From the IMG/VR virus record IMGVR_UViG_2778261458_000007: DNA of 39,379 nt; one strand, 5' to 3'. The notes beneath the pieces are model-generated. The model was not told the origin of the DNA and did no database searches. It was given only the letters and a program-made list of their open reading frames with translations. This document shows, one piece after another, positions 5,025 through 38,090 of this stretch. This stretch comes from a virus (taxonomy: Duplodnaviria; Heunggongvirae; Uroviricota; Caudoviricetes). The first letter of the stretch is position 1, and every line of letters begins with the position of its first letter. A program made the translations under genes and the position numbers.

Positions 5025-5041
5025 GTTACCGTTGAGGTAAT
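5025..5041. promoter_or_regulatory. Operator site 1 (OL-proximal): GTTACCGTTGAGGTAAT
   Basis: 17-bp palindrome NTTACC-N5-GGTAAN overlapping -10 and +1 of leftward early promoter. Confidence 0.6.
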
Positions 5042-5159: not shown

Positions 5160-5744
5160 TTATTGTTTGTTTTTTTCGTTCTGGTTGATGACAAATTCAA
5201 TGTAACTTTCGATCTTTGCTTTCTCGGTTTCGGGTAACAATGCGTAGCGCGAGCGATCATAGTTGATGGTCGCAGGGTCGTGCGGGTGAATCAGTAATTC
5301 ATAGCCGTGACGCCCGAATGCGGATGCAACATTCTCCAGGGTGGAAATGGAAACGCTGACCTCATTGTTTAACAGGCGGCTGATTGTCACCTGGGCTACG
5401 CCGGATGCGCGGTGAAGTTTTCCCTGTGTTGAAAGGTCGCGGCTTTCGCTCATCCAGCGTTCCAGGTTGTGAGCCGCCAGCTGGCCAATGTCGCTTGGGC
5501 CGACAGGCTGAAAACCTTCCTGAGAAAGCGAGCGATCGATATCAAGCCAGTTACGGGGTTTATTGGCGGCAGCTTCAATTTTTCGTGCAACCTGGTCGCC
5601 GATAACCTTCTTGCCAAGAGCCCAGCGGTTTACCAGATTTGCCTGAGTTCCAAGTTTTTCAGCCATCCGCGTCTGAACACCATTGAATTCACGGTCGATC
5701 AAGTCGTTGAGATTTTGCCTGCGGACGTCCTGGATACTTTTCAT
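5160..5744 (-). CDS. CI-like prophage repressor (tandem HTH, no recognisable S24 peptidase domain)
   Basis: 194-aa ORF divergent from cro-like gene across an operator cluster; two HTH-like segments (QTRMAEKLGTQANLVNRW and GVAQVTISRLLNNE); no Ala-Gly/Ser-Lys cleavage motifs seen. Confidence 0.7.
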   Translation of the reverse strand: MKSIQDVRRQNLNDLIDREFNGVQTRMAEKLGTQANLVNRWALGKKVIGDQVARKIEAAANKPRNWLDIDRSLSQEGFQPVGPSDIGQLAAHNLERWMSESRDLSTQGKLHRASGVAQVTISRLLNNEVSVSISTLENVASAFGRHGYELLIHPHDPATINYDRSRYALLPETEKAKIESYIEFVINQNEKNKQ

Positions 5745-8129: not shown

Positions 8130-8146
8130 GTTACCTGTTAGGTAAT
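8130..8146. promoter_or_regulatory. Operator site 7: GTTACCTGTTAGGTAAT
   Basis: After P-gene terminator, upstream of -35 TTGATT. Confidence 0.55.
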
Positions 8147-8210: not shown

Positions 8211-8555
8211 ATGAGAAAACAGATACAGGCTCTTGGTCGACTCAAAACAGGCCAGATGAACAAAACAGAATCTGCGTATTGCCAGCACCTTGAGCAGCGT
8301 AAACGTGCAGGGGAAATCGCCTGGTATCGATTCGAGGGTATCAAGCTGCGGTTAGCTGACAACACGTTCTATACGCCAGATTTCGCTGTGATGCTCGCCA
8401 CCGGAGAGATGGAACTGCACGAAGTGAAAGGTTTCTGGACCGACGACGCCAGGGTGAAAACCAAAGTCGCCGCAGATCAGTATCCGTTCCGAATCATCGG
8501 GGTAACGGTTAAGCCAAAGAAAGCAGGTGGTGGCTGGAACATCGAAGAGTTCTGA
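8211..8555 (+). CDS. DUF1064-like protein (putative nuclease)
   Basis: 114-aa ORF; motif pattern resembles DUF1064 phage proteins; start sits immediately after operator site 8. Confidence 0.55.
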   Translation: MRKQIQALGRLKTGQMNKTESAYCQHLEQRKRAGEIAWYRFEGIKLRLADNTFYTPDFAVMLATGEMELHEVKGFWTDDARVKTKVAADQYPFRIIGVTVKPKKAGGGWNIEEF

Positions 8556-9933: not shown

Positions 9934-10207
9934 CCTGCAACTTGCCGTCAAAGGTGAATACTTCGATGCCATGATTCGAGGAGAGAAAACGGAAGAGTAT
10001 CGACTGTGTAATGACTACTGGAATAAGCGAATTATGTTCCGGGAGTATGACCGCCTGATTATCACAAAGGGATATCCGAAGCGCGACGATTCCAGCCGAA
10101 GAATTGATGTTCCGTATGACGGATATGAAATCAAGACAATCACACATCCCCACTTCGGCGATAAACCGGTTAAGGTGTTCGCGATAAAGGTGAATATTGA
10201 TGTCTAA
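9926..10207 (+). CDS. ASCH/PUA-like small protein
   Basis: 93-aa ORF; GTG start with AGGAGG upstream; pattern resembles ASCH/DUF3850 proteins. Confidence 0.45.
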   Translation: MANLQLAVKGEYFDAMIRGEKTEEYRLCNDYWNKRIMFREYDRLIITKGYPKRDDSSRRIDVPYDGYEIKTITHPHFGDKPVKVFAIKVNIDV

Positions 10208-10538
10208 ATCAGCAGCAGAGCGCAAAGCCGCTCAGAGAGCCAGACAAGCTGAATCCGGTGTACGTAAGCTGGAGATTGTGCTTGATGCTCAGGAAATTGA
10301 AATGCTGGAGCGTAACTGTGCCACGCGTCGCCCCGGGCGTGCGCCTTACGAATTTGGTGAGTATATAGCGTTACTGATCCGCCAGGATGATGCACGCGTG
10401 CGCGGGCGTATAAAATCGATCAGCAGAAAACGTTGCGGTAAGTGCGGCGAGAGAGTTCCTGTGAATTCATGCCCGTGTAATGGTGACTCGCAATGCTGGG
10501 TGACCAAAGGCTGGCATGAAACGAAATTAATAGTGTGA
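10200..10538 (+). CDS. Hypothetical protein (Cys-rich C-terminus)
   Basis: ATG 10200 with AAGGTG upstream; C-terminal CGKCGERVPVNSCPCNGDSQC; stop lies inside palindrome GTGACATGTCAC. Confidence 0.45.
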   Translation: MSKSAAERKAAQRARQAESGVRKLEIVLDAQEIEMLERNCATRRPGRAPYEFGEYIALLIRQDDARVRGRIKSISRKRCGKCGERVPVNSCPCNGDSQCWVTKGWHETKLIV

Positions 10539-13976: not shown

Positions 13977-13993
13977 CTTACCTGAAAGGTAAT
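13977..13993. promoter_or_regulatory. Operator site 10 (head operon / tRNA divergent region): CTTACCTGAAAGGTAAT
   Basis: In noncoding region upstream of head genes and of minus-strand tRNA. Confidence 0.55.
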
Positions 13994-18474: not shown

Positions 18475-18810
18475 ATGTCAGGTGAGAAACCAAGATACCG
18501 CGTTCTGCGCCTCTCTCATATCCATAACACTCTGTGGCCGGAGGGGGCAGAAATCGAATACGAAGGTGAGCCTGGTAGCGCACTGGAACCTGTTAACGAT
18601 GCAGCCAGACAGGCAAAAGCAAAAGTTGCAGGAAAGGTGTCAATGGCAGCAACCAGCACCAAAATCATCAACGATGTGTCAGATGATGGTGAACTGGATA
18701 AGCTCCGTGAAGAGTACGAATTGCTCTTTAACGAGAGGCCACACCATAACGCCAAAGCAGAAACGCTCCGCGAGAAGATCGCAGATAAGCGTAAAGAACT
18801 GGGCGTGTAA
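18475..18810 (+). CDS. Hypothetical protein
   Basis: ATG 18475 with AAGGTGA upstream; followed by intrinsic terminator. Confidence 0.4.
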   Translation: MSGEKPRYRVLRLSHIHNTLWPEGAEIEYEGEPGSALEPVNDAARQAKAKVAGKVSMAATSTKIINDVSDDGELDKLREEYELLFNERPHHNAKAETLREKIADKRKELGV

Positions 18811-18826
18811 GCCTCGCGAATCAGAC

Positions 18827-18850
18827 AAGGGGCTTCGGCCCCTTTATTGC
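18827..18850 (+). terminator. Intrinsic terminator within structural region
   Basis: Hairpin AAGGGGC-TTCG-GCCCCTT followed by TATT. Confidence 0.6.
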
Positions 18851-18860
18851 AGGAGTGTAT

Positions 18861-19184
18861 ATGGAACTCGTAAACCTCAAAACCGGCACTGACAGCTACC
18901 AGGATGAGAGCGGAGAAACCAGAACTCGCGATGAATACCCGTGGGGGCTGTGCATCACGCTGAATAACGACACATTGAATAAGCTGAAGGCGCAACCTCA
19001 GGGCGTCGGAACAGAAGTGATGATAACTGCGAAGGCTGTTATTCGAGGCCTGTCTGCCAGAGAAACTGACGATGGTGTTAATCGCAGCGCCGATCTGCAG
19101 ATCACTGATATGGCAATCGCTCCTGTTTCCGGTGATGTAGAAAAATCAGCGGCTGAAACCCTCTACGGTAACGGGGGTGAGTGA
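18861..19184 (+). CDS. Hypothetical virion-associated protein
   Basis: ATG 18861 with AGGAG upstream. Confidence 0.4.
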   Translation: MELVNLKTGTDSYQDESGETRTRDEYPWGLCITLNNDTLNKLKAQPQGVGTEVMITAKAVIRGLSARETDDGVNRSADLQITDMAIAPVSGDVEKSAAETLYGNGGE

Positions 19185-19789
19185 TGGCCTCTGTAGTAGA
19201 GATCTGTAATCGTGCGCTGTCCAATATTGGCAACAGCCGCAGCATTAACAGCCTGACGGAAGCCAGCAAGGAAGCGGGGGAATGTTCGCTGCATTTTGAG
19301 GCCTGTCGTGATGCTGTGCTTTCTGATTTTGACTGGAACTTTGCTACAAAACGCGTGGCGCTTGCAGATACGAGCAATCCACCGCCTGACTGGGAATATG
19401 CGTACCAGTACCCTTCCGATTGTCTGCGCATTACTGAAATTATGCTTCCTGGTGTACGCAATCCAACAGCAGCAATGCGTGTTCAGTACGAAGTTGGTGC
19501 AGACACCAACGGAACAGGAAAATTGATCTACACAGACCAGCCGCAGGCATGGCTTAAGTATGTCTCTCGCGTTACAGATGTGAACATGTTTGATGCCATT
19601 TTTATGGAGGCGCTGGCCTGGCGTCTTGCGGCAGCTATTAACATGGCGCTGACTGGGAATGCAGACCTCGGTACGTTTGCCCTCAATATGTACAATCGCG
19701 TGATTCTTAGTGCTGGCTCGCATAGCCAGAATGAATCACAGGAACCACAGCCACCGGTTGATGAGTTTACCATTGCGAGGTTGTCCTGA
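19184..19789 (+). CDS. Tail tubular protein A-like (adaptor)
   Basis: N-terminal pattern and size resemble T7 gp11-type proteins; directly precedes large nozzle-like gene. Confidence 0.5.
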   Translation: MASVVEICNRALSNIGNSRSINSLTEASKEAGECSLHFEACRDAVLSDFDWNFATKRVALADTSNPPPDWEYAYQYPSDCLRITEIMLPGVRNPTAAMRVQYEVGADTNGTGKLIYTDQPQAWLKYVSRVTDVNMFDAIFMEALAWRLAAAINMALTGNADLGTFALNMYNRVILSAGSHSQNESQEPQPPVDEFTIARLS

Positions 19790-30506: not shown

Positions 30507-30507
30507 A

Positions 30508-30531
30508 GGCCGCTTTCGCGGCCTTGTTTTT
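30508..30531 (+). terminator. Intrinsic terminator ending the late structural operon
   Basis: Hairpin GGCCGC-TTTC-GCGGCC followed by TTGTTTTT. Confidence 0.65.
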
Positions 30532-30608
30532 AACGAATGCCACCGCCACCCGGGCGGGAATCCGCAGAACGCCCACCGCTGCGGGAGCCGTCAGCAGCAG
30601 TATCGCTG

Positions 30609-31112
30609 TTATACTATTGAGTTTAATGATATCTTGTCCTTAATATCATTAAGTTTGCCATATATCTTTTTTGCATAAAAATCAGCATCCTCAATAAACC
30701 TCGACTTCTCATTATCAGGCATATTTTTGAAGGTATGTGCACATGTATATTGAGAGTAGTATTTGTGAAATTCTTGATACGCATTATTGAGTTCTTGTAA
30801 GTCTTTTTTATACTCAGGAAGGTATATGTTTATTAGCATTTCCATCGTTTGCAACGGATTCGCTCTTGATACGTCAAATTTACTATCAGAGTGGTATCTG
30901 GCATTTTTTACGAAATTGAGAATGGTAATTGTGCTTGAATCTATGACTTTTTTAGTAAGTATACAATTTATAAATAATTGCTCGCATTTATCCCTTAATA
31001 TTTTTTGTCGCTCTAATCTTATGCTGTTTTTGTATCCTTGTCTTGCATTTATATAAGTGGAAACTATAGCAATAACTGCACCTATCAATGCGCCTAAGAT
31101 AGTATTATCCAT
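30609..31112 (-). CDS. Membrane-anchored protein of unknown function
   Basis: Start ATG 31112 with AGGTGG upstream; one N-terminal TM segment (ILGALIGAVIAIVSTYI); AT-rich coding sequence. Confidence 0.5.
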   Translation of the reverse strand: MDNTILGALIGAVIAIVSTYINARQGYKNSIRLERQKILRDKCEQLFINCILTKKVIDSSTITILNFVKNARYHSDSKFDVSRANPLQTMEMLINIYLPEYKKDLQELNNAYQEFHKYYSQYTCAHTFKNMPDNEKSRFIEDADFYAKKIYGKLNDIKDKISLNSIV

Positions 31113-31137
31113 ATAAGCCACCTAAACTGCGTAAAAT

Positions 31138-32001
31138 TTATTTCCTGCCACTTCTGTAGTATATGTTGCGACCATTTTTGGTCACATTAACAACATGACC
31201 CTTTGTTTCTACTTTGTTATTTGTTGCCTTATATACTTCAAAGTCAAACCATGATATATGACTTATTTCGTCTATAGATACCATAATTTCTAGACCTTGA
31301 ACTTTCTTTTTGCTTATCCCTTTTATCGCAGCACTGCGCTTAATTTGGATTTCACCTGGGTAAGCGTTTGTAAATGTAACAGATAAATTTTCTTTGTTTC
31401 TGTACCCTGACATTAAAGGAACAAAAGATATGTGTTGGTGTGGCCCTTGATTTTCCGTTGGCTCACCAGAACCATTTATTATTCCAACGTATACTTTATT
31501 TGATGATAAAGTAATTAACATTGGTTTCTTAGGATCTGATTCGATTGCATCAAGCAATAGCAAATCTAAAGAACCCTGGGAGTACGTTTTTCGCAATACC
31601 CTAGCTTTCATTGCCTCTGATATTTTGTCATAAATATCACGTTTATAAAAACAACCTAAAAGAAGATCTTTTAGCCAAACAAAAGATACATAACACAAAG
31701 AGAAGCAAATTGATGTGACTGACAGAAGAAGTAGCCACATGTAAATTCTATCTGTTTCTGGTTTTGACGTTACATTAAAAGTTTCCACCATATCGTGAAC
31801 TAGGTGAAAATCAGGATATTTATATTTTATAAATGAGGCAATTATTACCGAAGCAACAAGGCAATATGTACCTAATGCAGCTACTTTCATATAAAGAAGC
31901 TGGCCTTCATGTCGGTATAAACGGAAATAATGATACTGGTTAGCGGTTATCATAATATAACCACTAACCAGAATGGGGATAATTAGAAGAGCTAACAACA
32001 C
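31138..32001 (-). CDS. Membrane protein of unknown function (three N-terminal TM segments plus soluble domain)
   Basis: 287-aa ORF; GTG start overlapping stop of upstream 69-aa gene, RBS AAGGA; hydrophobic stretches at roughly residues 1-20, 40-60, 85-105; AT-rich. Confidence 0.5.
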   Translation of the reverse strand: MLLALLIIPILVSGYIMITANQYHYFRLYRHEGQLLYMKVAALGTYCLVASVIIASFIKYKYPDFHLVHDMVETFNVTSKPETDRIYMWLLLLSVTSICFSLCYVSFVWLKDLLLGCFYKRDIYDKISEAMKARVLRKTYSQGSLDLLLLDAIESDPKKPMLITLSSNKVYVGIINGSGEPTENQGPHQHISFVPLMSGYRNKENLSVTFTNAYPGEIQIKRSAAIKGISKKKVQGLEIMVSIDEISHISWFDFEVYKATNNKVETKGHVVNVTKNGRNIYYRSGRK

Positions 32002-32210
32002 TATTTCCTTACAGTGGCAAGATCCTGTTTAACGATTGCAGCAGCGAGACGACGCATCTCCTTAACCTCAGGAAGCTCAGAAATTTGCTGTGATGAGATA
32101 TACACTCCACCACGCTTGTTAACCTGCGCTGACGCCGGAACTTCTGCATTTTTTGCCTGAGGGCTGGGTGCATTATCCCTCGTTTTTGTACGAGCGAACC
32201 AAAATCCCAT
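32001..32210 (-). CDS. Small basic protein (69 aa), first gene of accessory operon
   Basis: Strong RBS AGGAGGAGAT; directly downstream of operator-overlapped promoter. Confidence 0.45.
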   Translation of the reverse strand: MGFWFARTKTRDNAPSPQAKNAEVPASAQVNKRGGVYISSQQISELPEVKEMRRLAAAIVKQDLATVRK

Positions 32211-32235
32211 ATCTCCTCCTCATGTAAACACATGG

Positions 32236-32252
32236 TTTACCTTTAAGGTAAT
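32236..32252. promoter_or_regulatory. Operator site 11 (accessory operon promoter): TTTACCTTTAAGGTAAT
   Basis: Overlaps -10 and +1 of leftward promoter TTGCAG-17-TACTAT. Confidence 0.55.
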
Positions 32253-32279
32253 AGTACGCTATTCACCCCCGGTCTGCAA
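32251..32279 (-). promoter_or_regulatory. Promoter of accessory membrane-protein operon
   Basis: On minus strand -35 TTGCAG (32279-32274), 17-bp spacer, -10 TACTAT (32256-32251) overlapping operator site 11. Confidence 0.45.
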
Positions 32280-32290
32280 TCTGTACAGAA

Positions 32291-32315
32291 TTATTTAAAG
32301 GCACATCCCTGTGCC
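32291..32315 (-). terminator. Hairpin terminator after Bro-N gene
   Basis: Hairpin GGCACA-GGGA-TGTGCC followed on minus strand by TTTAAATAA. Confidence 0.45.
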
Positions 32316-32323
32316 GCCGCCCG

Positions 32324-33034
32324 TCAGAAGAACCCTGCCTTGTCGTTGATGTACTCCGCGTGTGTCTGGATATCACGCAGGCATTTGCTCACACCGACGA
32401 TGTAGCAGAACATGGTGGTCAGCTCCGCCGCTGCGCCCGATACGTCGTGCCCGTCGTCCTGTAACTGGTTCAGCAGATTCATCAGCAGTGAGTTCTCTGT
32501 CAGGCCGAGAACACCAGACGGCGAATGAATCAGGCTGCGGTAGCCGGGCTTCAGTGGGGCGCTGTAGGTTTTGTTCTCTACCTTCATTGCCTGCATCACT
32601 GCTGACGCCGTGGCGTTGGCTACCTGGTCGGCAACCATCTTTATGCGTTCTTCCTGCGGGAGCGAGTTTTTAATGTAGCGTCCGGTGCGGCGGATCTGAG
32701 GAAGAACCTCACCTGTAACCCATTTACGAAAGCGGTAGGGTATAGTGCCTGGTGTCACTGCGTCGCGGCAGCGTAGGATCAGTGTGTAGAGGCCTGACTC
32801 GGAGATGATGTTGATCTCTTTTACTCGGCTGTCAAAAATTGCACGATGTTCATGCCCTATGTTGAACATAGACCTTTCATCATCATCCAGTTTTTCAAGT
32901 GCTTGGGTGACGTTTTGGATACGCAGCGCACTACAAACGTCTTGGGCTACAAACCATGGTTGGCCATCGATAATGATGGAACGGATAGGGTTAACAGATT
33001 CAAATTTGAAGATGGCAGTTTGAGCATTAGCCAT
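32324..33034 (-). CDS. Bro-N domain antirepressor-like protein
   Basis: N-terminal region FVAQDVCSALRIQN...ISESGLYTLILRCRD...FRKWVTGEVLPQIRRTG matches Bro-N-type antirepressors; start ATG 33034 with GGAG upstream. Confidence 0.65.
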   Translation of the reverse strand: MANAQTAIFKFESVNPIRSIIIDGQPWFVAQDVCSALRIQNVTQALEKLDDDERSMFNIGHEHRAIFDSRVKEINIISESGLYTLILRCRDAVTPGTIPYRFRKWVTGEVLPQIRRTGRYIKNSLPQEERIKMVADQVANATASAVMQAMKVENKTYSAPLKPGYRSLIHSPSGVLGLTENSLLMNLLNQLQDDGHDVSGAAAELTTMFCYIVGVSKCLRDIQTHAEYINDKAGFF

Positions 33035-33190
33035 GGTGGTTATCTCCACTTAGTGATTTTAATCACCACCGCAACGCCAATTACTGGTGGTGAACTGGAC
33101 AAGGTTGGCGTACCGGCCTAAGTGGTACCGGCGTCCTTTCGGACCCCTGCCCAGCCCACCATAATTCGGATATAGCTGTGCTTAACGCAT

Positions 33191-33213
33191 AAAAAAACCA
33201 CGTCTGGCGTGGT
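33191..33213 (-). terminator. Intrinsic terminator inside leader upstream of Bro-N gene
   Basis: Hairpin ACCACG-CCAGA-CGTGGT followed on minus strand by T-run. Confidence 0.55.
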
Positions 33214-33302
33214 ATGCGCCACTTAGTAACCCGGGACGCCAATCCCGGCACTGGATTTTGCCAGTGCCTGATTACTATGGCACAAGAGGAGTGCGATGTA
33301 AA

Positions 33303-33319
33303 TTTACCTCAAAGGTAAA
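33303..33319. promoter_or_regulatory. Operator site 12 (antirepressor leader promoter): TTTACCTCAAAGGTAAA
   Basis: Overlaps -10 of leftward promoter TTGCAA-17-TATATT. Confidence 0.55.
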
Positions 33320-33346
33320 TATAAGCACTCCACTTGGTAATTGCAA
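33318..33346 (-). promoter_or_regulatory. Promoter of structured leader/sRNA upstream of Bro-N gene
   Basis: On minus strand -35 TTGCAA (33346-33341), 17-bp spacer, -10 TATATT (33323-33318) overlapping operator site 12. Confidence 0.45.
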
Positions 33347-33349
33347 ACC

Positions 33350-33607
33350 TTATCTGGTTTGTTTTCGTAATTGTTCGGCACAATAGTCGAGATGTGTTTG
33401 CAGCTCCTGCATAGACATCTGTGAGCTGGTGACGTAGTTAATCAGTGCAGTCAGTTCGGCAAGTGGGCCATCGACATTAAATCCATCCTTATCGAGATCC
33501 CGGAGTAATTTCATCAAGTGCGATCCCTCCACCAGTGATCTGACGCCTCCCGGCGTGTGAATCCTTTCGGTAAATCCGTCTTCCAGTGGATAGTGATACT
33601 GCTGCAT
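33350..33607 (-). CDS. Small antirepressor-like protein (homolog of Bro-N protein C-terminal domain), LexA-box associated
   Basis: About 45 percent identity by eye to residues about 150-215 of the Bro-N protein (shared LAELT, QTH..Y); start at second ATG 33607 with GGAG RBS; LexA box 23 bp upstream. Confidence 0.5.
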   Translation of the reverse strand: MQQYHYPLEDGFTERIHTPGGVRSLVEGSHLMKLLRDLDKDGFNVDGPLAELTALINYVTSSQMSMQELQTHLDYCAEQLRKQTR

Positions 33608-33629
33608 CTTAATCTTCTCCATGCAATAA

Positions 33630-33683: not shown

Positions 33684-33700
33684 ATTACCTGAAAGGTAAT
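33684..33700. promoter_or_regulatory. Operator site 13: ATTACCTGAAAGGTAAT (perfect palindrome)
   Basis: In divergent region between LexA-boxed small gene and tailspike gene; preceded by TTGCAA. Confidence 0.6.
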
Positions 33701-33803
33701 ATCTATTCATATTCACAGTCTTTCTATCCATATGTGGTTTTTCAGGTAATAGAATAACCAGATATGCGGCGCAACGGGTGCTGCGACTATCTGGAGATTT
33801 AAC

Positions 33804-36077
33804 ATGACGGTCTCAACCGAAGTTGACCACAACGAATACACCGGTAACGGCGCTACGACATCATTTCCGTATACCTTCCGTATTTTCAAAAAATCCGACC
33901 TGGTTGTTCAGGTGTCTGACCTGAACGGGAACGTAACAGAATTGGTTCTGGATACCGGTTATGCGGTAACTGGGGCGGGCACTTATAGTGGCGGTTCTGT
34001 TGTTCTGCCGTCTCCGCTTGCTGCTGGCTGGCGAATTACGATAGATCGTGTGCTTGATGTAGTGCAGGAGACAGATCTTCGCAATCAGGGAAAATTTTTC
34101 CCCGAAGTGCATGAAGATGCTTTTGACTACCTGACGATGCTGATCCAGCAATGTTTTGGGTGGTTCAGACGTGCATTGATGAAACCATCTTTGCTTGCAA
34201 AATATTACGATGCAAAGCAAAACAGAATTTCTAACCTTGCAGATCCATCACTTGAGCAGGACGCTGTAAATAATCGCTCAATGCGTAATTATGTCGATGC
34301 TGCAATCGCCGGGGTTGTTGGTGGTTTTGGTTGGTTTATTCAGTATGGTTCTGGGGCAGTATACAGAACGTTCCAGGATAAAATGCGTGACATATACAGT
34401 GTCAAGGATTTTGGTGCTATAGGTGACGGTGTGATCAATGATACTGCTGCGATCGCATATGCGTCTGTGAATCAGATGATAGATCTTGGGCGCGGGATTT
34501 ACAAAGTGGACTCCTTGTCACTTGCCCTTGGGGCAATATCGTCTGGAGCTACAATAACCCTTAGCGGACGTCACGAAAATATTATCTCTCCTCTTTTTGC
34601 TGGTGAGTTAATAGGTAATCTTACCATACAGGGGGACTCGCCTGTGACATTAAGTGTCATATCCGCCAGTATTTCATTCTCTAGCACCTTCCAGGTAGAA
34701 TATTATGCAGATGATTTTCGCTCAGCTAAGTACCAGCTTGTAGACGTTCTGTTAAGTGGGGCAGTACAGGTCGGCAATATGCTGCTAATAAGGGCTGACC
34801 AACCAGAGTTGTCAGGCTGTTTCGAAGTGGTTGGTGTTCCTGCTGAAAATACTGCTCGGGTATTGATGCTTGCGCAAGGTTCGCTAGATATAAGTAGTTT
34901 TACCGGAACTGCTAAGGTTCTTACAACAGTTCTTCAGTTTTCCAATATTACCCCGATTGATGTGTCTGGTGGTAATCTGAAACTGGTTAATATCGGCATT
35001 CTTGGTGCTTGTTATCCAGTCAAAAATGGTTCACGTTCAAATGTGTACGATCCTCGTGGAAGCAATGGTGTATCGGGTATTGTTGCGAGAAATGGCGGTA
35101 TTGTGCTCGGCGTAGATTCTGGAATATCAGGAGTTTCAGGGACTCAGCTTGTCGGCGTCGATAGTGGGGAAATTGACTGGACAGGGTGTTTCGTATCTTG
35201 CGGTGGTCGAAATGGAATATCCGCATCATTAGGTAAACTAACCTTCGCAAGTGGCGTAGCCACGCAAAACTTGCTGGACAATGTGATAACGCAGGATCAG
35301 AGTTTCGGTTTTGCAACATCATCAATTTCTGCACATGCAGGCAGGAACGGTTATATCTCTTCAACTAACTCCACCTGCAATTTGTCAGGCAGCAACTCTC
35401 AACAAAACGGATTTATGGATCCTACCAATGGTAATGGTGCCAGTGCTTCCAGTGGAAATCTAACAGTCATTGGATGTCAAATAAAAAACAATGCTAATGC
35501 TGGCATAATAGGGATTGGAAGTTCTGACATTCGTGGGACAGGAATAAATGTCCAATGGAATTCATATGGAGTATTAATGGACACTGCTTCTCATGCATTG
35601 GTTACAGGGATAGTTAATAACAATTCTGTCACCGATTTACTGGCACGTAACCGGGGTAAAATAGAAGCTATTAATGTAACGCACACGACGTCAAAACCAC
35701 AAGTTAACCTTACAGACGGAACTGGAGCATTGGTTCAGAATACATCCGGAATTGATGATTTTCGTACCTCTGGCGGGCTGGAAGTTGCCGGAGGTGGAGT
35801 TATAAAAAAGGTTATCCGAATGCGAGTTACAGGTGTCGATTTTCCAACTGTTCCTGCTGGTAGCCAGCAATCGGTATCGGTATCAGTGCCTGGCGTCATA
35901 TCGTCTTATGAAAACGTAGTAATAGTGCAGAGAGACTCTACTAATAACAGGTCTGGATTGATGTATGAAGCAATTGTATCTTCAGATAATACTGTGCTTA
36001 TAACTTGTAATAACTTCTCTACATCAGAGATAGACCCTCCTGCTGAAAACTTCAATCTGGTTGTTTTTTCTTTCTAA
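33804..36077 (+). CDS. Tailspike protein (N-terminal particle-binding domain plus beta-helix receptor-binding domain)
   Basis: 757-aa ORF; N-terminus MTVSTEVDHNEYTGNGATTSFPYTF typical of podovirus tailspikes; VKDFGAIGDGVINDTAAI motif typical of pectate-lyase-like beta-helix. Confidence 0.8.
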   Translation: MTVSTEVDHNEYTGNGATTSFPYTFRIFKKSDLVVQVSDLNGNVTELVLDTGYAVTGAGTYSGGSVVLPSPLAAGWRITIDRVLDVVQETDLRNQGKFFPEVHEDAFDYLTMLIQQCFGWFRRALMKPSLLAKYYDAKQNRISNLADPSLEQDAVNNRSMRNYVDAAIAGVVGGFGWFIQYGSGAVYRTFQDKMRDIYSVKDFGAIGDGVINDTAAIAYASVNQMIDLGRGIYKVDSLSLALGAISSGATITLSGRHENIISPLFAGELIGNLTIQGDSPVTLSVISASISFSSTFQVEYYADDFRSAKYQLVDVLLSGAVQVGNMLLIRADQPELSGCFEVVGVPAENTARVLMLAQGSLDISSFTGTAKVLTTVLQFSNITPIDVSGGNLKLVNIGILGACYPVKNGSRSNVYDPRGSNGVSGIVARNGGIVLGVDSGISGVSGTQLVGVDSGEIDWTGCFVSCGGRNGISASLGKLTFASGVATQNLLDNVITQDQSFGFATSSISAHAGRNGYISSTNSTCNLSGSNSQQNGFMDPTNGNGASASSGNLTVIGCQIKNNANAGIIGIGSSDIRGTGINVQWNSYGVLMDTASHALVTGIVNNNSVTDLLARNRGKIEAINVTHTTSKPQVNLTDGTGALVQNTSGIDDFRTSGGLEVAGGGVIKKVIRMRVTGVDFPTVPAGSQQSVSVSVPGVISSYENVVIVQRDSTNNRSGLMYEAIVSSDNTVLITCNNFSTSEIDPPAENFNLVVFSF

Positions 36078-36289
36078 TGGTATCGCTGAAATTCGTTTCC
36101 AGTCATGTAAAGTTGAATGCTAAGAAATGTTGGTTTCATGAACAATCATCCGCTGAGTATCTATTATGCGATTTATTAATCGCAATGATACGCAATCACA
36201 ATAAATGGTAACGATTATTCATAAATGGTTTGTTGTGTATAATGACTCTCATCTTTCAGCCGAGGCATCATGCACAACAAACGGTGTTT

Positions 36290-36697
36290 ATGATGAATAC
36301 AACGTTTACGACAGATTCTATAAATCAAGGTTTAAGCCTTAGTGCACTGGCGTCAGTATTGGTTGGTGTTCCGACAGAGGTGGCGCTCGGTGCTTTGTCA
36401 GGAGCGGTAATTTTTGTTACCTCTGCTGTTGAGTATCCCATTCATCGCCGGATTCTCCTATCTATGCTCAGCTTCCTCTGCGGCCTTCTCTTTTACAAAC
36501 CTACAGCATCCATCCTTATCGGTGTAGCCAGCCTGATCCCTACCATCACGCAGGACTCTTTCGAGAAAGGGATCGTCTTCTCTGCTGGCGCATTTGTGTC
36601 ATCAATTGTCGCCGTGCGAATTGGTATATGGCTTTATCACCGTTCCGATAATCCACGAGAGTTAATTCCGGGGAGAAAAGACGATGGCAACGCATGA
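36290..36697 (+). CDS. Holin-like membrane protein
   Basis: Adjacent Met codons (MMNTTF) then three to four hydrophobic segments; first gene of lysis cassette; the ORF-track start at 36230 is TTG and unlikely. Confidence 0.5.
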   Translation: MMNTTFTTDSINQGLSLSALASVLVGVPTEVALGALSGAVIFVTSAVEYPIHRRILLSMLSFLCGLLFYKPTASILIGVASLIPTITQDSFEKGIVFSAGAFVSSIVAVRIGIWLYHRSDNPRELIPGRKDDGNA

Positions 36698-36992
36698 GCT
36701 TTTTTTGCTTATCACCAATGCAGTTATTTGTACTGGCATAGCAATTCGTGTTGTCACATTCCGGCGTAACGGATCTCAACACCGAAGATGGGGAGGTTGG
36801 CTTGCTTATTTTCTGATTGTTGCTGCGGCCAGTATTCCAGTTCGTGCTGTCTATGCAATCTGGCTACGCACGCCAATGGCTGTGGATTTATCTGAGATCA
36901 TTATCAACGCTGTCATGCTTGCTGCGGTTCTTAAAACTCGCGGTAACGTCGTTCAGATTTTCAAAATAACGAGGTCTAAACATGGAGATTAA
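36684..36992 (+). CDS. Second holin-like membrane protein
   Basis: 102-aa ORF with three hydrophobic segments, overlapping neighbours in lysis cassette. Confidence 0.5.
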
Positions 36993-37611
36993 ACAATTCC
37001 AGCGAGCTGCTGGTATTAGCGAGGCGCTGGCCGCTCGCTGGTTCTCGCATATAACTTCTGCGATGAAAGAGTTTGGTATCAGCAAAGCAGAAGATCAGGC
37101 AATGTTTATTGCTCAAGTCGGGCATGAGTCTGTGGGCTTCACCAGGTTGCAGGAGAATTTCAACTACAGTGTCAGCGGACTGGCTAACTTCGTTCGGGCT
37201 GGGCGTCTCACTCAGTGGCAGGCTAATGCACTTGGTCGCCGTGCTGGTGAACCACCATTGCCACTCGAGCGCCAGCGCGCGATCGCAAATCTGGTGTACA
37301 GCAAACGCATGGGGAACAATGCCCCTGGTGATGGCTGGAATTACCGAGGGCGCGGACTTATCCAGATTACCGGTTTGAATAACTATCGTGATTGCGGAAA
37401 CGGTCTGAAGGTTGACCTGCTGGAGAGTCCTGAACTGCTGGCGCAGGACGAATATGCGGCCCGTAGCGCGGCGTGGTTCTTCGTTAGCAAAGGATGCATG
37501 AAGTATACCGGCGATATTGCACGTGTAACTCTGATTATCAATGGTGGCCGGAACGGCATCGACGACCGGCGCGCGCGGTACATCACTGCCAGTAAGGTGC
37601 TGGCGGTATGA
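36982..37611 (+). CDS. Endolysin, glycoside hydrolase family 19-like
   Basis: Motifs FIAQVGHES and GRGLIQITG typical of GH19 phage endolysins; RBS GAGGT. Confidence 0.75.
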
Positions 37612-38090
37612 TCTGGGCATTCGTAAAAGCATACTGGAAACAGTTGCTTATCGTGGCGGTGCCTGCTGTTCTGGTCATATCAGGAGTTGTTGCCTGGAAT
37701 GTACACGGTAGCCGTCAGTACGACGCCGGGTATGCGCAGGCGAAAGAAGACCGCAAAGCCGAAGAAGAAAAAGTTCGTCAGTACTACGAACAGGAGAAAG
37801 CGACCAATGAACGTGAAGCTCAGCAGAGGATCGACCAGGCGCGCAATGATGCTCTTGATGCTGCCGCTCGCGCTGGCCGGTTGCAGCAACAACTCTTTGC
37901 CATCCGTGAGCAGCTCAGGCAGTATAACGCCATTGTCGGCGCTGGGACGTCAGCCGCAGACACCGGAGTTTTGCTTGCCGACGTGCTCAGCAAATCTCTC
38001 GAGAGAAACAGACAACTGGCAGAGTATGCTGACCGGGCAGCCGAAGCCGGAAGAGTCTGCGAAAAACAGTACGACACACTGACCAGATAG
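37608..38090 (+). CDS. i-spanin (Rz-like)
   Basis: N-terminal TM segment then charged coiled-coil region; start overlaps endolysin stop (ATGA). Confidence 0.6.
37807..38082 (+). CDS. o-spanin (Rz1-like lipoprotein) embedded in +1 frame of i-spanin gene
   Basis: ATG 37807 with AGGAGAAAG RBS; signal peptide with lipobox LAGC; Pro/Ser-rich mature part; entirely within Rz-like gene. Confidence 0.55.
   Translation: MNVKLSRGSTRRAMMLLMLPLALAGCSNNSLPSVSSSGSITPLSALGRQPQTPEFCLPTCSANLSRETDNWQSMLTGQPKPEESAKNSTTH

What the first reader, a model, noticed from the sequence alone, without database searches (positions are those of the whole stretch)
33804..36077. Tailspike with conserved N-terminal particle-binding domain and beta-helix receptor-binding domain, placed between the accessory block and lysis genes
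The N-terminal 30 residues look like the conserved virion-attachment module of podovirus tailspikes, while the rest carries a pectate-lyase-like beta-helix signature (DFGAIGDGVINDTAAI). The gene is a separate transcription unit with its own operator-associated promoter, apart from the structural operon, which would ease modular exchange of host range. Its substrate would define the host O-antigen type.
Basis: partly seen in the sequence, partly recalled or inferred. Interest (0 to 1): 0.4.

Follow-up and report, generated by a model that had tools for sequence, protein, structure and literature searches.

The report
Prophage tailspike with rare receptor-binding module
This gene is the host-recognition spike of an epsilon15-like prophage of E. 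coli: a standard virion-attachment end joined to a rare, unannotated beta-helix sugar-binding module that may recognise the O7 surface antigen, so it is an ordinary kind of gene with a probably new specificity.

Summary
The ORF 33804-36077 (+, 757 aa) is real and is the tailspike of an epsilon15-like (Uetakevirus) prophage that runs from the integrase to yfgI/yfgH.

- **Virion anchor.** Residues 1-165 are 71% identical to the anchor of an epsilon15-type tailspike. They also match domains D1-D2 of Carin-1 Dpo31, which were resolved on that phage's tail.
- **Receptor module.** Residues about 200-757 form a separate module. AlphaFold (pLDDT 87) predicts a cap carrying the DFGAIGDG motif, a long-stranded insertion, about 10 beta-helix rungs and a C-terminal beta-sandwich. 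All top Foldseek hits are beta-helix tailspikes or depolymerases, but TM-scores are low and no Pfam beta-helix model passes threshold.
- **Rarity and exchange.** The module has 10 clusters among 5.8 billion proteins, no match in 50,697 phage records, and occurs in 2 of 5,426 complete E. coli genomes. It sits on four phage backbones: Uetakevirus, P22-like, T7-like and siphovirus-like.
- **Possible target.** Both complete genomes that carry it have the O7 O-antigen cluster. This is suggestive only.
- **Transcription.** A strong terminator ends the structural operon, and a repressor-type palindrome lies upstream of the gene. The palindrome's register fits the divergent leftward promoter. No good rightward promoter was found.

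Verdict: a new member of a known kind.

The parts
33804..36077 (+). Tailspike gene, 757 aa plus stop codon
   Evidence: ORF listed. Tail/tailspike PHROG families E=2e-143. The exact protein is found on 21 public contigs, always between the 85-aa gene and the holin.
33804..34301 (+). Virion-anchor module, aa 1-166. A beta-sandwich (aa 8-84) is followed by the start of a helical neck.
   Evidence: 71% identity to aa 1-161 of a 1070-aa epsilon15-type tailspike. E=2e-31 to Carin-1 Dpo31 aa 1-214. Foldseek hit 8ck1_B with 47% identity and TMt 0.63. AF2 gives strands at aa 9-82 with pLDDT 79-88.
34302..34400 (+). Neck/linker, aa 167-199. It is conserved among E. coli Uetakevirus tailspikes and is probably part of a trimeric coiled coil.
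   Evidence: Nucleotide identity of 86-100% to phiv142-3 and HEMP4 up to nt about 540-585 of the gene. AF2 predicts helices with pLDDT below 40 in the monomer model. The Dpo31 D2 coiled coil spans residues 102-256.
34407..34454 (+). N-cap motif DFGAIGDGVINDTAAI, at the start of the receptor-binding module and at the recombination junction
   Evidence: Coordinates. A profile of the family matches the N-caps of GH55 glucanase, AlgE4/AlgE6 epimerases and a pectin lyase at E=4e-9 to 3e-4. Identity to phiv142-3 decays across this motif.
34401..35732 (+). Predicted right-handed beta-helix body, aa 200-643, with about 10 three-strand rungs
   Evidence: AF2 pLDDT is mostly above 90 and short strands repeat with a period of about 22-23 residues. 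Foldseek top hits are phi297 gp61, LKA1 gp49, K1 lyase, AP22 gp54 and Sf6 tailspike. Profile match to the Andhra gp15 beta-helix at E=1.7e-15.
34596..34871 (+). Long-stranded beta-sheet insertion within the helix, aa 265-356
   Evidence: AF2 strands of 10-21 residues (aa 265-276, 281-301, 304-317, 338-347) with pLDDT 88-98. Calling it an insertion domain is an inference from secondary structure only; the coordinates were not inspected.
35763..36074 (+). C-terminal beta-sandwich domain, aa 654-757, a module shared with other tailspikes
   Evidence: Independent hits to profile positions about 600-710 in other proteins. Most of these carry PF12708 beta-helix domains. Match to Klebsiella phage Kp7 depolymerase 7y5s residues 453-551 at E=7.5e-5.
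33685..33699 (.). Repressor-operator-type palindrome TTACCTGAAAGGTAA in the divergent intergenic region
   Evidence: One of 11 sites in the window against 0.04 expected. Its register relative to a leftward -10-like hexamer is the same as at the 33304 and 5026 sites. The region is 98% conserved in sister phages.
33727..33755 (+). Weak candidate rightward promoter, TCCATA-17-TAGAAT, overlapping an operator half-site at 33740-33750
   Evidence: Matches 8 of 12 consensus positions. It falls below the threshold of the consensus scan. Half-site reported (inverted repeat I7).
33752..33800 (+). Hairpin in the 5' leader that abuts or overlaps the Shine-Dalgarno sequence
   Evidence: Free energy -22.4 kcal/mol, z=-2.6. 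Conserved in E. coli E1, phiv142-3 and HEMP4.
30507..30532 (+). Intrinsic terminator ending the structural/injection operon
   Evidence: Stem of 7 pairs with 6 G-C pairs, followed by a T-run.
36293..38090 (+). Lysis cassette downstream: two holins, a GH19 endolysin and an Rz-like gene. It is probably co-transcribed with the tailspike.
   Evidence: Pfam hits. No + strand terminator was found between 36078 and 36292. RefSeq annotation of the E1 prophage agrees.

Best explanation
The gene encodes the tailspike (receptor-binding protein) of an integrated Uetakevirus, an epsilon15-like podovirus.

**Anchor and neck.** The N-terminal beta-sandwich (aa about 8-84) docks the trimer onto the tail. A helical neck (aa about 100-199) forms a flexible trimeric stalk. 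The homology is shown; the docking role is inferred from epsilon15 and Carin-1.

**Receptor module.** Residues 200-757 are an exchangeable module. It consists of a right-handed beta-helix with an inserted beta-sheet domain and a C-terminal beta-sandwich. This is predicted, not solved. The module is inferred to bind, and probably to cleave by endoglycosidase activity, a surface polysaccharide of the host. That would bring the phage to the outer membrane.

**Likely substrate.** The best candidate is the E. coli O7 O-antigen. This is an association only.

**Candidate catalytic core.** The family-invariant polar cluster is N489, D492, Q497 and D498, with R469, R514 and D416. It lies on consecutive helix rungs and is the candidate active site (inference).

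**Origin of the gene.** The gene arose by recombination at or near the shared DFGAxGDGxxxDT cap motif. The same module also sits on P22-like, T7-like and siphovirus-like anchors.

**Expression.** Expression is probably late, together with the lysis cassette. It could come from a weak, activator-dependent promoter in the 180-nt upstream region, or from antiterminated read-through across the accessory block. This point is unresolved.
For: - **Backbone and context.** DNA matches to phiv142-3, ZX5, HEMP4 and VB_ST_E15. The gene order is the same as in the annotated relatives. The integrase lies at 1-1251 and yfgI/yfgH at the other end.
- **Anchor.** 71% identity over aa 1-165 to an epsilon15-type 1070-aa tailspike. 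PHROG tail families reach E down to 2e-143. Dpo31 / Carin-1 tail assembly: E=2e-31, and Foldseek 8ck1_B at 47% identity. D1 of Dpo31 contacts the virion in cryo-EM (PMC13317679). Epsilon15 gp20 has a slender phage-binding domain before residue 248 (bioRxiv 10.64898/2026.07.31.742079). Uetakevirus anchors are delimited at about 205 aa in PMC10408124.
- **Beta-helix.** AF2 mean pLDDT is 86.7 for the module alone and 80.8 for the full length, with regular three-strand rungs. There are 55-66 Foldseek PDB hits at E<=1e-3, and the top 50 listed are almost all beta-helix tailspikes or glycan-active enzymes. The best BFVD hit is the phage IMM-002 tail fibre at TM 0.58. A family profile hits the Andhra RBP beta-helix at E=1.7e-15 and the beta-helix N-caps.
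- **Modularity.** 10 homologue clusters carry PF09008, PF18668, PF03906 or PF12708 N-terminal parts. They lie in P22-like, siphovirus-like and T7-like contigs. The junction is at nt about 540-650 of the gene.
- **O7.** Both complete genomes with the gene carry O7 wzx/wzy. O7 wzy occurs in 97 of 5,426 genomes.
Against: - No Pfam beta-helix or pectate-lyase model reaches its gathering score on this protein. Even distant homologues are just below the cut-off, for example PF13229 at 25.1 against 25.9 bits.
- Foldseek TM-scores to solved tailspikes are low (0.2-0.35) and rmsd values are 11-21 A. The global topology therefore differs from the solved examples, or the monomer model is partly wrong.
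- The neck is modelled with pLDDT below 40.
- The O7 link rests on two genomes from China with identical alleles, which are probably not independent. One of them has a frameshifted vioA. Another O7 genome, Br_112_kylling, carries a Uetakevirus prophage with a different receptor module. The serotype of the window's own host is unknown.
Confidence: 0.8

Rival explanations
1. The module targets a capsule (K antigen) or another exopolysaccharide rather than the O-antigen. The O7 association would then be a by-product of clonal descent.
For: The top structural matches include capsule depolymerases: K1 lyase 7w1c, AP22 gp54 and K64-1 S2-4. PMC10408124 notes that some Uetakevirus RBP subtypes, such as phiv142-3, occur across many serogroups and may target K antigens. 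Only two complete genomes, probably related, support O7.
Against: Uetakevirus and Lederbergvirus prophage RBPs usually match the O-serogroup of the lysogen (PMC10408124). The characterised members are O-antigen specific: epsilon15 on O:3,10 and phiV10 on O157. Both carriers are O7, which has a background frequency of 1.8%.
Confidence: 0.3
2. The protein is a binding-only fibre, or a deacetylase, without glycosidase or lyase activity.
For: No recognised catalytic family (Pfam, CAZy-like) is matched. No catalytic residues were verified. Some tailspikes are esterases, for example the epsilon15 petal domain.
Against: Invariant Asp, Asn, Gln and Arg residues cluster on successive predicted rungs (N489, D492, Q497, D498, R469, R514), as expected for an active site. 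No SGNH or other esterase fold or domain was detected. Beta-helix tailspikes of this architecture are generally depolymerases.
Confidence: 0.15
3. The tailspike, with the lysis genes, is an autonomous transcription unit driven by its own promoter, and that promoter is directly controlled by the prophage repressor through the operator at 33685-33699.
For: A strong terminator closes the structural operon at 30507-30532. About 3.1 kb of opposite-strand genes intervene. The operator palindrome and an extra half-site at 33740-33750 lie upstream of the gene. The region is 98% conserved. Other operator copies precede rightward genes at 8131, 8193 and 13978.
Against: No + strand sigma-70-like promoter reaches 9 of 12 matches between 33623 and 33803; the best reaches 8 of 12. 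The operator's register matches leftward promoters: a -10-like hexamer shares its last TT with the operator at 33304 and 33685, and a similar abutting arrangement is seen at 5026. A PHROG 'transcriptional regulator' at 10197-10538, just upstream of the terminase gene, could be a late activator or antiterminator. In P22 the tailspike is reached by antiterminated late transcription (established knowledge).
Confidence: 0.3
4. The gene is a relic in a defective prophage and is no longer used.
For: No direct evidence of induction exists for this prophage. RefSeq labels the gene only as 'hypothetical protein'.
Against: The ORF is intact and full length, like its homologues of 757 aa. All prophage modules from the integrase to Rz are present with long intact ORFs. 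The identical protein occurs on 21 contigs in several prophage variants, which implies recent mobility and purifying selection.
Confidence: 0.05

Closest known systems
Salmonella phage epsilon15 tailspike gp20 (Uetakevirus; GH90 endorhamnosidase with an SGNH esterase petal)
   Same: The N-terminal phage-binding module is the same: 71% identity over aa 1-165 to the 1070-aa gp20-type protein of VB_ST_E15. The phage backbone is the same. The overall logic also matches: anchor, flexible neck, trimeric beta-helix, then a beta-sandwich.
   Different: There is no detectable similarity after aa about 165. The protein has no petal/esterase domain and is 757 aa rather than 1070 aa. In epsilon15-type genomes the spike lies downstream of the structural genes with no annotated opposite-strand gene upstream of it. 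Here a leftward accessory block with an antirepressor intervenes.
E. coli Uetakevirus RBPs (phiV10, phiv142-3, ZX5, PAS61 and the many prophage copies)
   Same: The first about 540-650 nt are 93-98% identical. The position between the 85-aa gene and the holins is the same. The anchor is delimited at about 205 aa in PMC10408124.
   Different: The receptor module is different. Most E. coli copies are annotated as GH28-related or endosialidase-like. This module is found in only 2 of 5,426 complete genomes and in none of 50,697 phage records.
Carin-1 (Cobetia marina podovirus) tailspike Dpo31, PDB 28lx / 8ck1
   Same: D1 beta-sandwich plus D2 coiled coil: E=2e-31 over aa 1-209, and Foldseek 47% identity. 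D1 is seen bound to the tail in cryo-EM.
   Different: The beta-helix D3 is not detectably homologous. Dpo31 has an autocleaved C-terminal chaperone D4. Here the C-terminus is a beta-sandwich with no Peptidase_S74 domain.
Pseudomonas phage LKA1 gp49 / phi297 gp61 tailspikes (O-specific polysaccharide lyases)
   Same: These are the best Foldseek PDB hits, E about 1e-11. They share the described architecture of beta-helix, insertion domain and C-terminal beta-sandwich-like domain (abstract of PMC5701251).
   Different: Sequence identity is 11-12% and TM-score only 0.19-0.29. There is no evidence for a lyase mechanism. The O7 repeat, as I recall it, has no uronic acid, and beta-elimination would need one (from memory, not checked here).
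P22 gp9-type tailspikes (Lederbergvirus)
   Same: The functional class is the same. A P22-like contig carries this very module (82% identity) behind a PF09008 head-binding domain, downstream of arc and ant.
   Different: The window protein has no PF09008 domain. Its helix is not the GH90 P22 type; Foldseek places P22 only at rank 39 with E=4e-5.
Staphylococcus phage Andhra RBP gp15 (8egr) and Klebsiella phage Kp7 depolymerase (7y5s)
   Same: The family profile matches the Andhra beta-helix rungs at E=1.7e-15 and the Kp7 C-terminal domain at E=7.5e-5. Both are virion RBPs with a beta-helix.
   Different: These are only partial, repeat-level or single-domain similarities. The anchors and the hosts are different.

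Membership tests
Uetakevirus (epsilon15-like) tailspike | N-terminal phage-binding module homologous to gp20 aa 1 to about 165 | tested here: met
   71% identity, E=2e-68. PHROG tail families E down to 2e-143.
Uetakevirus (epsilon15-like) tailspike | Encoded in a Uetakevirus genome, upstream of the holin/endolysin cassette | tested here: met
   Synteny with phiv142-3 and with the E. coli E1 prophage. Megablast hits to Uetakevirus records.
Uetakevirus (epsilon15-like) tailspike | Homotrimer present on the virion, six spikes per tail | not testable with these tools
   Inferred only from epsilon15 and Carin-1 structures.
Right-handed parallel beta-helix polysaccharide depolymerases (pectate-lyase-like fold) | Beta-helix fold of stacked three-strand rungs | tested here: met
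   This rests on a prediction only. AF2 pLDDT 86.7 with a rung period of about 22-23 residues. Foldseek probability 1.0 to many beta-helix tailspikes, but TM-scores of 0.2-0.35. Profile hit to the Andhra beta-helix at E=1.7e-15.
Right-handed parallel beta-helix polysaccharide depolymerases (pectate-lyase-like fold) | Match to Pfam PF12708 or PF13229 above the gathering score | tested here: not met
   No such hit on the query. 
Right-handed parallel beta-helix polysaccharide depolymerases (pectate-lyase-like fold) | N-cap motif (D/N)FGAxGDGxxDDT | tested here: met
   Motif at aa 202-217. Profile hits to the caps of GH55, AlgE4/AlgE6 and a pectin lyase.
Right-handed parallel beta-helix polysaccharide depolymerases (pectate-lyase-like fold) | Acidic catalytic residues in a substrate groove; depolymerase activity | tested here: inconclusive
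   Invariant D416 and D492 and near-invariant D498 and E341 were found. Their spatial position could not be inspected. Activity cannot be tested here.
P22-type tailspike (PF09008 head-binding domain plus GH90) | PF09008 head-binding N-terminal domain | tested here: not met
   Absent from the query. Present in homologue P0002, which shares only the receptor module.
T7 gp17-type tail fibre N-terminal domain (PF03906) | PF03906 match above the gathering score | tested here: not met
   15.6 bits against a cut-off of 25.2, covering aa 135-161 only. Any relationship is therefore distant at best.
Epsilon15 gp20 catalytic family (GH90 endorhamnosidase plus SGNH petal) | Sequence similarity to gp20 residues 248-1070 | tested here: not met
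   BLASTP finds nothing significant beyond aa 165.
O7-antigen-specific receptor-binding protein (proposed here) | Carried by prophages of O7 strains | tested here: inconclusive
   Both complete genomes with the gene (2 of 2) have O7 wzx/wzy, against a background of 97 of 5,426. The two are probably related strains. The serotypes of the other 21 contig sources are unknown.

The most novel reading that the evidence does not exclude
The receptor module (aa 200-757) may found a previously undescribed family of tailspike depolymerases, potentially a new glycoside-hydrolase family. It would have its own topology: a cap, a long-stranded beta-sheet insertion, a beta-helix and a shared C-terminal sandwich. 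It would be specific for the Qui4NAc-containing O7 antigen of E. coli, and it has been shuttled between four unrelated phage backbones.
Probability: 0.3. Interest if true: 0.4.

Novelty: new member of a known kind. Interest (0 to 1): 0.25.

Why it matters
Tailspike receptor modules set the host range of a phage. They are also the parts used to retarget tailocins, reporter phages and serotyping reagents.

This module is annotated only as a hypothetical protein. It has no Pfam family and is absent from sequenced phage isolates. A tentative O7 assignment would therefore add a specificity that published RBP-to-serogroup maps such as PMC10408124 do not cover.

Its presence on Uetakevirus, P22-like, T7-like and siphovirus-like anchors is a clean natural example of module exchange. 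The crossover lies at the conserved cap motif. Conceptually, nothing here departs from the established picture of mosaic tailspikes.

Tried and rejected
- **Single-sequence searches on the C-terminal part.** Pfam, PHROGs and PDB searches gave nothing usable.
- **tblastn of the module against 50,697 phage records.** No match.
- **Distant blastn of the module against E. coli complete genomes.** This found only the same two genomes, so an independent test of the serogroup link through diverged copies was not possible.
- **Exact-protein look-up.** It found 21 contigs, one of them 608 kb. The O-antigen locus lies about 510 kb away and only 10-kb flanks can be read, so their serotypes stayed unknown.
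- **PADLOC and Pfam on the low-GC accessory genes.** No hits.
- **Epsilon15 genome paper (Kropinski 2007).** I tried to read it to check my recollection that a 17-bp operator consensus was described there. The paper is not held, so that recollection is not used as evidence.
- **Sigma-70 consensus scan.** It gave no more sites than shuffled sequence (16 against 16.6) and none on the + strand just upstream of the gene.
- **Comparative covariation for the 5' hairpin.** This was uninformative because the relatives are 98% identical.
- **P22-type head-binding identity for the N-terminus.** Considered and rejected: no PF09008 hit.
- **Lyase mechanism suggested by the top structural hits.** Considered and rejected as unsupported: TM-scores are low, and the O7 unit as I recall it lacks uronic acid.
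Full report
**The observation**

- The window holds an ATG-initiated ORF of 757 codons at exactly 33804-36077 on the + strand.
- A GGAG lies 7 nt upstream of the ATG.
- The first ten residues, MTVSTEVDHN, are identical to those of an epsilon15-type tailspike, which fixes the start codon.
- The quoted motif DFGAIGDGVINDTAAI is at aa 202-217, nt 34407-34454.
- The described feature is therefore present at the stated coordinates.

**Genomic setting**

- The window is an almost complete prophage. It runs from an integrase (1-1251) through a repressor/replication region, then terminase, portal, capsid and large injection-type proteins.
- Next comes a leftward accessory block (30609-33622), then the tailspike, two holins, a GH19 endolysin and an Rz-like gene. 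The host genes yfgI and yfgH follow.
- DNA matches are to Uetakevirus phages phiv142-3, ZX5, HEMP4, VB_ST_E15 and others. The annotated relatives have the same gene order.
- ZX5 is reported to integrate at the 3' end of guaA (PMC9782041). This fits the yfgI-side junction seen here.
- In epsilon15-type Salmonella phages the annotated record shows no opposite-strand gene upstream of the spike. In the E. coli members a leftward block with a Bro-N antirepressor intervenes.

**N-terminal module**

- All PHROG hits (E=2e-143 to 1e-13) are annotated as tail, tailspike or tail fibre, or have no annotated function. All are confined to aa 1-241.
- Residues 1-165 are 71% identical to the 1070-aa epsilon15-type tailspike, and nothing beyond that point is similar.
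- The one solved relative found by sequence is Dpo31 of the marine podovirus Carin-1, E=2e-31 over aa 1-209.
- The paper on Dpo31 describes D1 (residues 8-87) as a beta-sandwich that contacts the base of the virion in cryo-EM. D2 (102-256) is a hinged three-helix coiled coil (PMC13317679).
- The full-length AlphaFold model agrees. It shows strands at aa 9-82 (pLDDT 79-88). Helices follow with pLDDT below 40, as expected for a coiled coil modelled as a monomer.
- Foldseek recovers the Carin-1 tail assembly chain 8ck1_B at 47% identity and TMt 0.63.
- Epsilon15 gp20 likewise has a slender, flexibly hinged phage-binding domain before residue 248 (bioRxiv 10.64898/2026.07.31.742079).
- The anchor is thus about 165-200 residues of the epsilon15/Carin-1 type.
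- It is not the P22 head-binding type, since PF09008 is not hit. Its resemblance to T7 gp17 is sub-threshold: PF03906 scores 15.6 bits against a cut-off of 25.2.

**Receptor-binding module**

*Sequence searches*
- Single-sequence searches are silent for aa 200-757. PHROGs give nothing, and PDB gives nothing.

*AlphaFold models*
- AlphaFold with the family alignment gives a confident all-beta model, with mean pLDDT 86.7 and pTM 0.75. A second run on the full-length protein with a deeper alignment reproduces it.
- In full-length numbering the model has four parts:
  - a cap with the DFGAxGDG motif and the first rungs (aa 200-262);
  - a region of unusually long strands, 10-21 residues each (aa 265-356), which I read as an inserted beta-sheet domain;
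  - about ten rungs of three short strands with a period of about 22-23 residues (aa 368-626);
  - after a low-confidence linker, a beta-sandwich (aa about 654-757).

*Foldseek*
- The top hits are almost all beta-helix tailspikes, depolymerases or glycan-active beta-helix enzymes.
- In PDB they include phi297 gp61, LKA1 gp49, Klebsiella K1 lyase, AP22 gp54, Sf6, CBA120 TSP2/TSP3, Det7 and HK620, at E down to 1e-11.
- In BFVD the best hit is the phage IMM-002 tail fibre at TM 0.58.
- TM-scores to solved structures are low (0.2-0.35). The fold class is supported, but the global architecture is not a close copy of any solved spike.

*Profile searches*
- A profile of 24 family members hits the beta-helix of the Andhra receptor-binding protein at E=1.7e-15. 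That helix is described as 19 triangular layers (PMC9710869).
- The same profile hits the N-caps of GH55 glucanase, AlgE4/AlgE6 and a pectin lyase. It also hits the C-terminal domain of Klebsiella phage Kp7 depolymerase 7y5s.
- The C-terminal about 100 residues also occur on their own in other proteins. Most of these carry PF12708 beta-helix domains.
However, the claim of a 'pectate-lyase signature' rests on the cap motif only.

**Rarity and modular exchange**

- The module has only 10 clusters of homologues at 53-99% identity among 5.8 billion proteins.
- An exhaustive profile search of 1.84 billion representatives adds roughly twenty more distant bodies. In total 14 proteins score E<=1e-30.
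- No phage record contains it by tblastn.
- Among 5,426 complete E. coli genomes, 495 carry the anchor but only 2 carry this module. In both it is annotated as 'hypothetical protein'.
- The homologues join the same module to different N-termini: PF09008, PF18668, PF03906 and PF12708.
- Their contigs are recognisable as three other phage types:
  - P22-like, with injection proteins, arc and P22-type ant;
  - siphovirus-like, with a tape-measure protein, DNA polymerase A and an SNF2 helicase;
  - T7-like, with nozzle, gp14 and internal core proteins followed by holin and small terminase.
- Within Uetakeviruses, nucleotide identity to phiv142-3 stays at 86-100% up to nt about 585. It then decays through the shared cap motif to background by nt about 675. 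For HEMP4 the break is at nt about 540.
- This is the modular, motif-assisted exchange already described for these genera. PMC10408124 delimits the Uetakevirus anchor at the first 205 aa of the phiV10 RBP.

**Likely substrate**

- Both complete genomes with the gene, strains E1 and FXCREC043, carry an O-antigen cluster annotated with O7-family wzx and wzy, together with vioA/vioB, rfbBDAC and wbbD.
- O7 wzy is present in 97 of 5,426 genomes, and many of those are laboratory B strains.
- PMC10408124 reports that Uetakevirus prophage RBPs usually match the lysogen's serogroup. On that basis O7 is the best candidate.
- The two strains are probably related: both are from China, with identical alleles. 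One has a frameshifted vioA. Another O7 genome hosts a Uetakevirus with a different module.
- I put the O7 assignment at about 0.45.
- The identical protein is present on 21 further contigs, in prophage variants with different accessory genes. A proper test by in-silico serotyping is therefore feasible, but not with these tools.
- Family-invariant residues D416, R469, N489, D492, Q497 and R514, with near-invariant D498 and E341, are candidate active-site residues. This is inference only.

**Expression**

- The structural operon ends with a strong intrinsic terminator at 30507-30532.
- About 3.1 kb of opposite-strand genes follow, so the tailspike is physically detached from the structural operon.
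- No + strand terminator lies between the tailspike and the holin. Co-transcription with the lysis cassette is therefore likely.
- The palindrome TTACCT-N3-AGGTAA occurs 11 times in the window, against 0.04 expected. Five copies surround the HTH repressor gene, two lie upstream of the gene at 8211 and one at 13978. One further copy lies upstream of each of three leftward accessory transcription units, including 33685-33699.
- At 33304 and 33685 a leftward -10-like hexamer shares its last TT with the operator. At 5026 the leftward -10 abuts the operator in a similar way.
- The operator next to the tailspike thus most simply serves the divergent 85-aa gene.
- The best rightward candidate, TCCATA-17-TAGAAT at 33727-33755, matches 8 of 12 positions and overlaps an operator half-site.
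- A conserved hairpin (-22.4 kcal/mol, z=-2.6) covers the leader up to the Shine-Dalgarno sequence.
- A weak, activator-dependent late promoter and antiterminated read-through are both compatible with the data. The claim that the gene has its own operator-associated promoter is plausible but not shown.

**Verdict**

- The finding is correct in substance and ordinary in kind. It is a mosaic Uetakevirus tailspike with a conserved anchor and an exchangeable beta-helix module.
- What is new is the module itself. It is rare, unannotated, has no Pfam family and is absent from phage isolates. It is shared across four phage backbones and is tentatively linked to serogroup O7.
- Classification: new member of a known kind. 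Interest: 0.25.

Noticed in passing
window 5026, 5088, 5800, 5848, 6185, 8131, 8193, 13978, 32237, 33304, 33685 (15 nt each): The palindrome TTACCT-N3-AGGTAA occurs 11 times against 0.04 expected. Five copies flank the HTH repressor gene (5160-5744, - strand). The others precede transcription units across the genome, including sites inside the late region. This looks like a dispersed operator regulon of the prophage repressor.
   Followed up: partly
window 33752-33800 (+): A conserved hairpin (-22.4 kcal/mol, z=-2.6) lies in the tailspike 5' leader and reaches into the Shine-Dalgarno sequence. It could control translation or transcript stability. The relatives are 98% identical, so no covariation test was possible.
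   Followed up: partly
window 30609-32210 (-): A low-GC (34-39%) block holds three leftward ORFs of 170, 287 and 69 aa. The first two have N-terminal hydrophobic segments. None has a significant Pfam hit (only two sub-threshold matches) and none has a PADLOC hit. Prophages that carry the identical tailspike have a YafO-family toxin cassette at this position instead. The site is therefore a moron or defence hot-spot.
   Followed up: partly
window 33350-33622 (-) versus 32324-33049 (-): The small gene next to the tailspike is 40% identical (E=9e-16) to the C-terminal 78 residues of the Bro-N antirepressor two genes away. It is a free-standing copy of the antirepressor C-terminal domain, with its own operator.
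   Followed up: partly
window about 33611-33613: The window has one extra A (CTTAATCTTC against CTT-ATCTTC in E1, phiv142-3 and HEMP4). This brings an upstream ATG into frame and lengthens the 85-aa ORF to 90 aa.
   Followed up: no
window 36238-36243 (+): A perfect TATAAT with TG-rich upstream bases, but no good -35 element, lies about 50 nt before the annotated holin start. It may be an internal promoter for the lysis cassette.
   Followed up: no
L012 (NZ_CP195866.1) 18635-19746: In the lysogen FXCREC043, the O7-cluster gene vioA (Qui4NAc synthesis) is annotated as frameshifted. If this is real, the lysogen may have lost or altered the presumed receptor.
   Followed up: no
window 10197-10538 (+): A 113-aa protein of a PHROG 'transcriptional regulator' family has no Pfam domain. 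It sits immediately upstream of the small terminase gene, so it is a candidate late-gene activator or antiterminator of Uetakeviruses.
   Followed up: no
L006/L007 8001-10160: A siphovirus-like contig (tape-measure protein, DNA polymerase A, SNF2 helicase, Enc34-type ssDNA-binding protein) carries the same receptor module at 54% identity behind a PF18668 Tail_spike_N domain. This shows transfer between podovirus and siphovirus morphotypes.
   Followed up: partly
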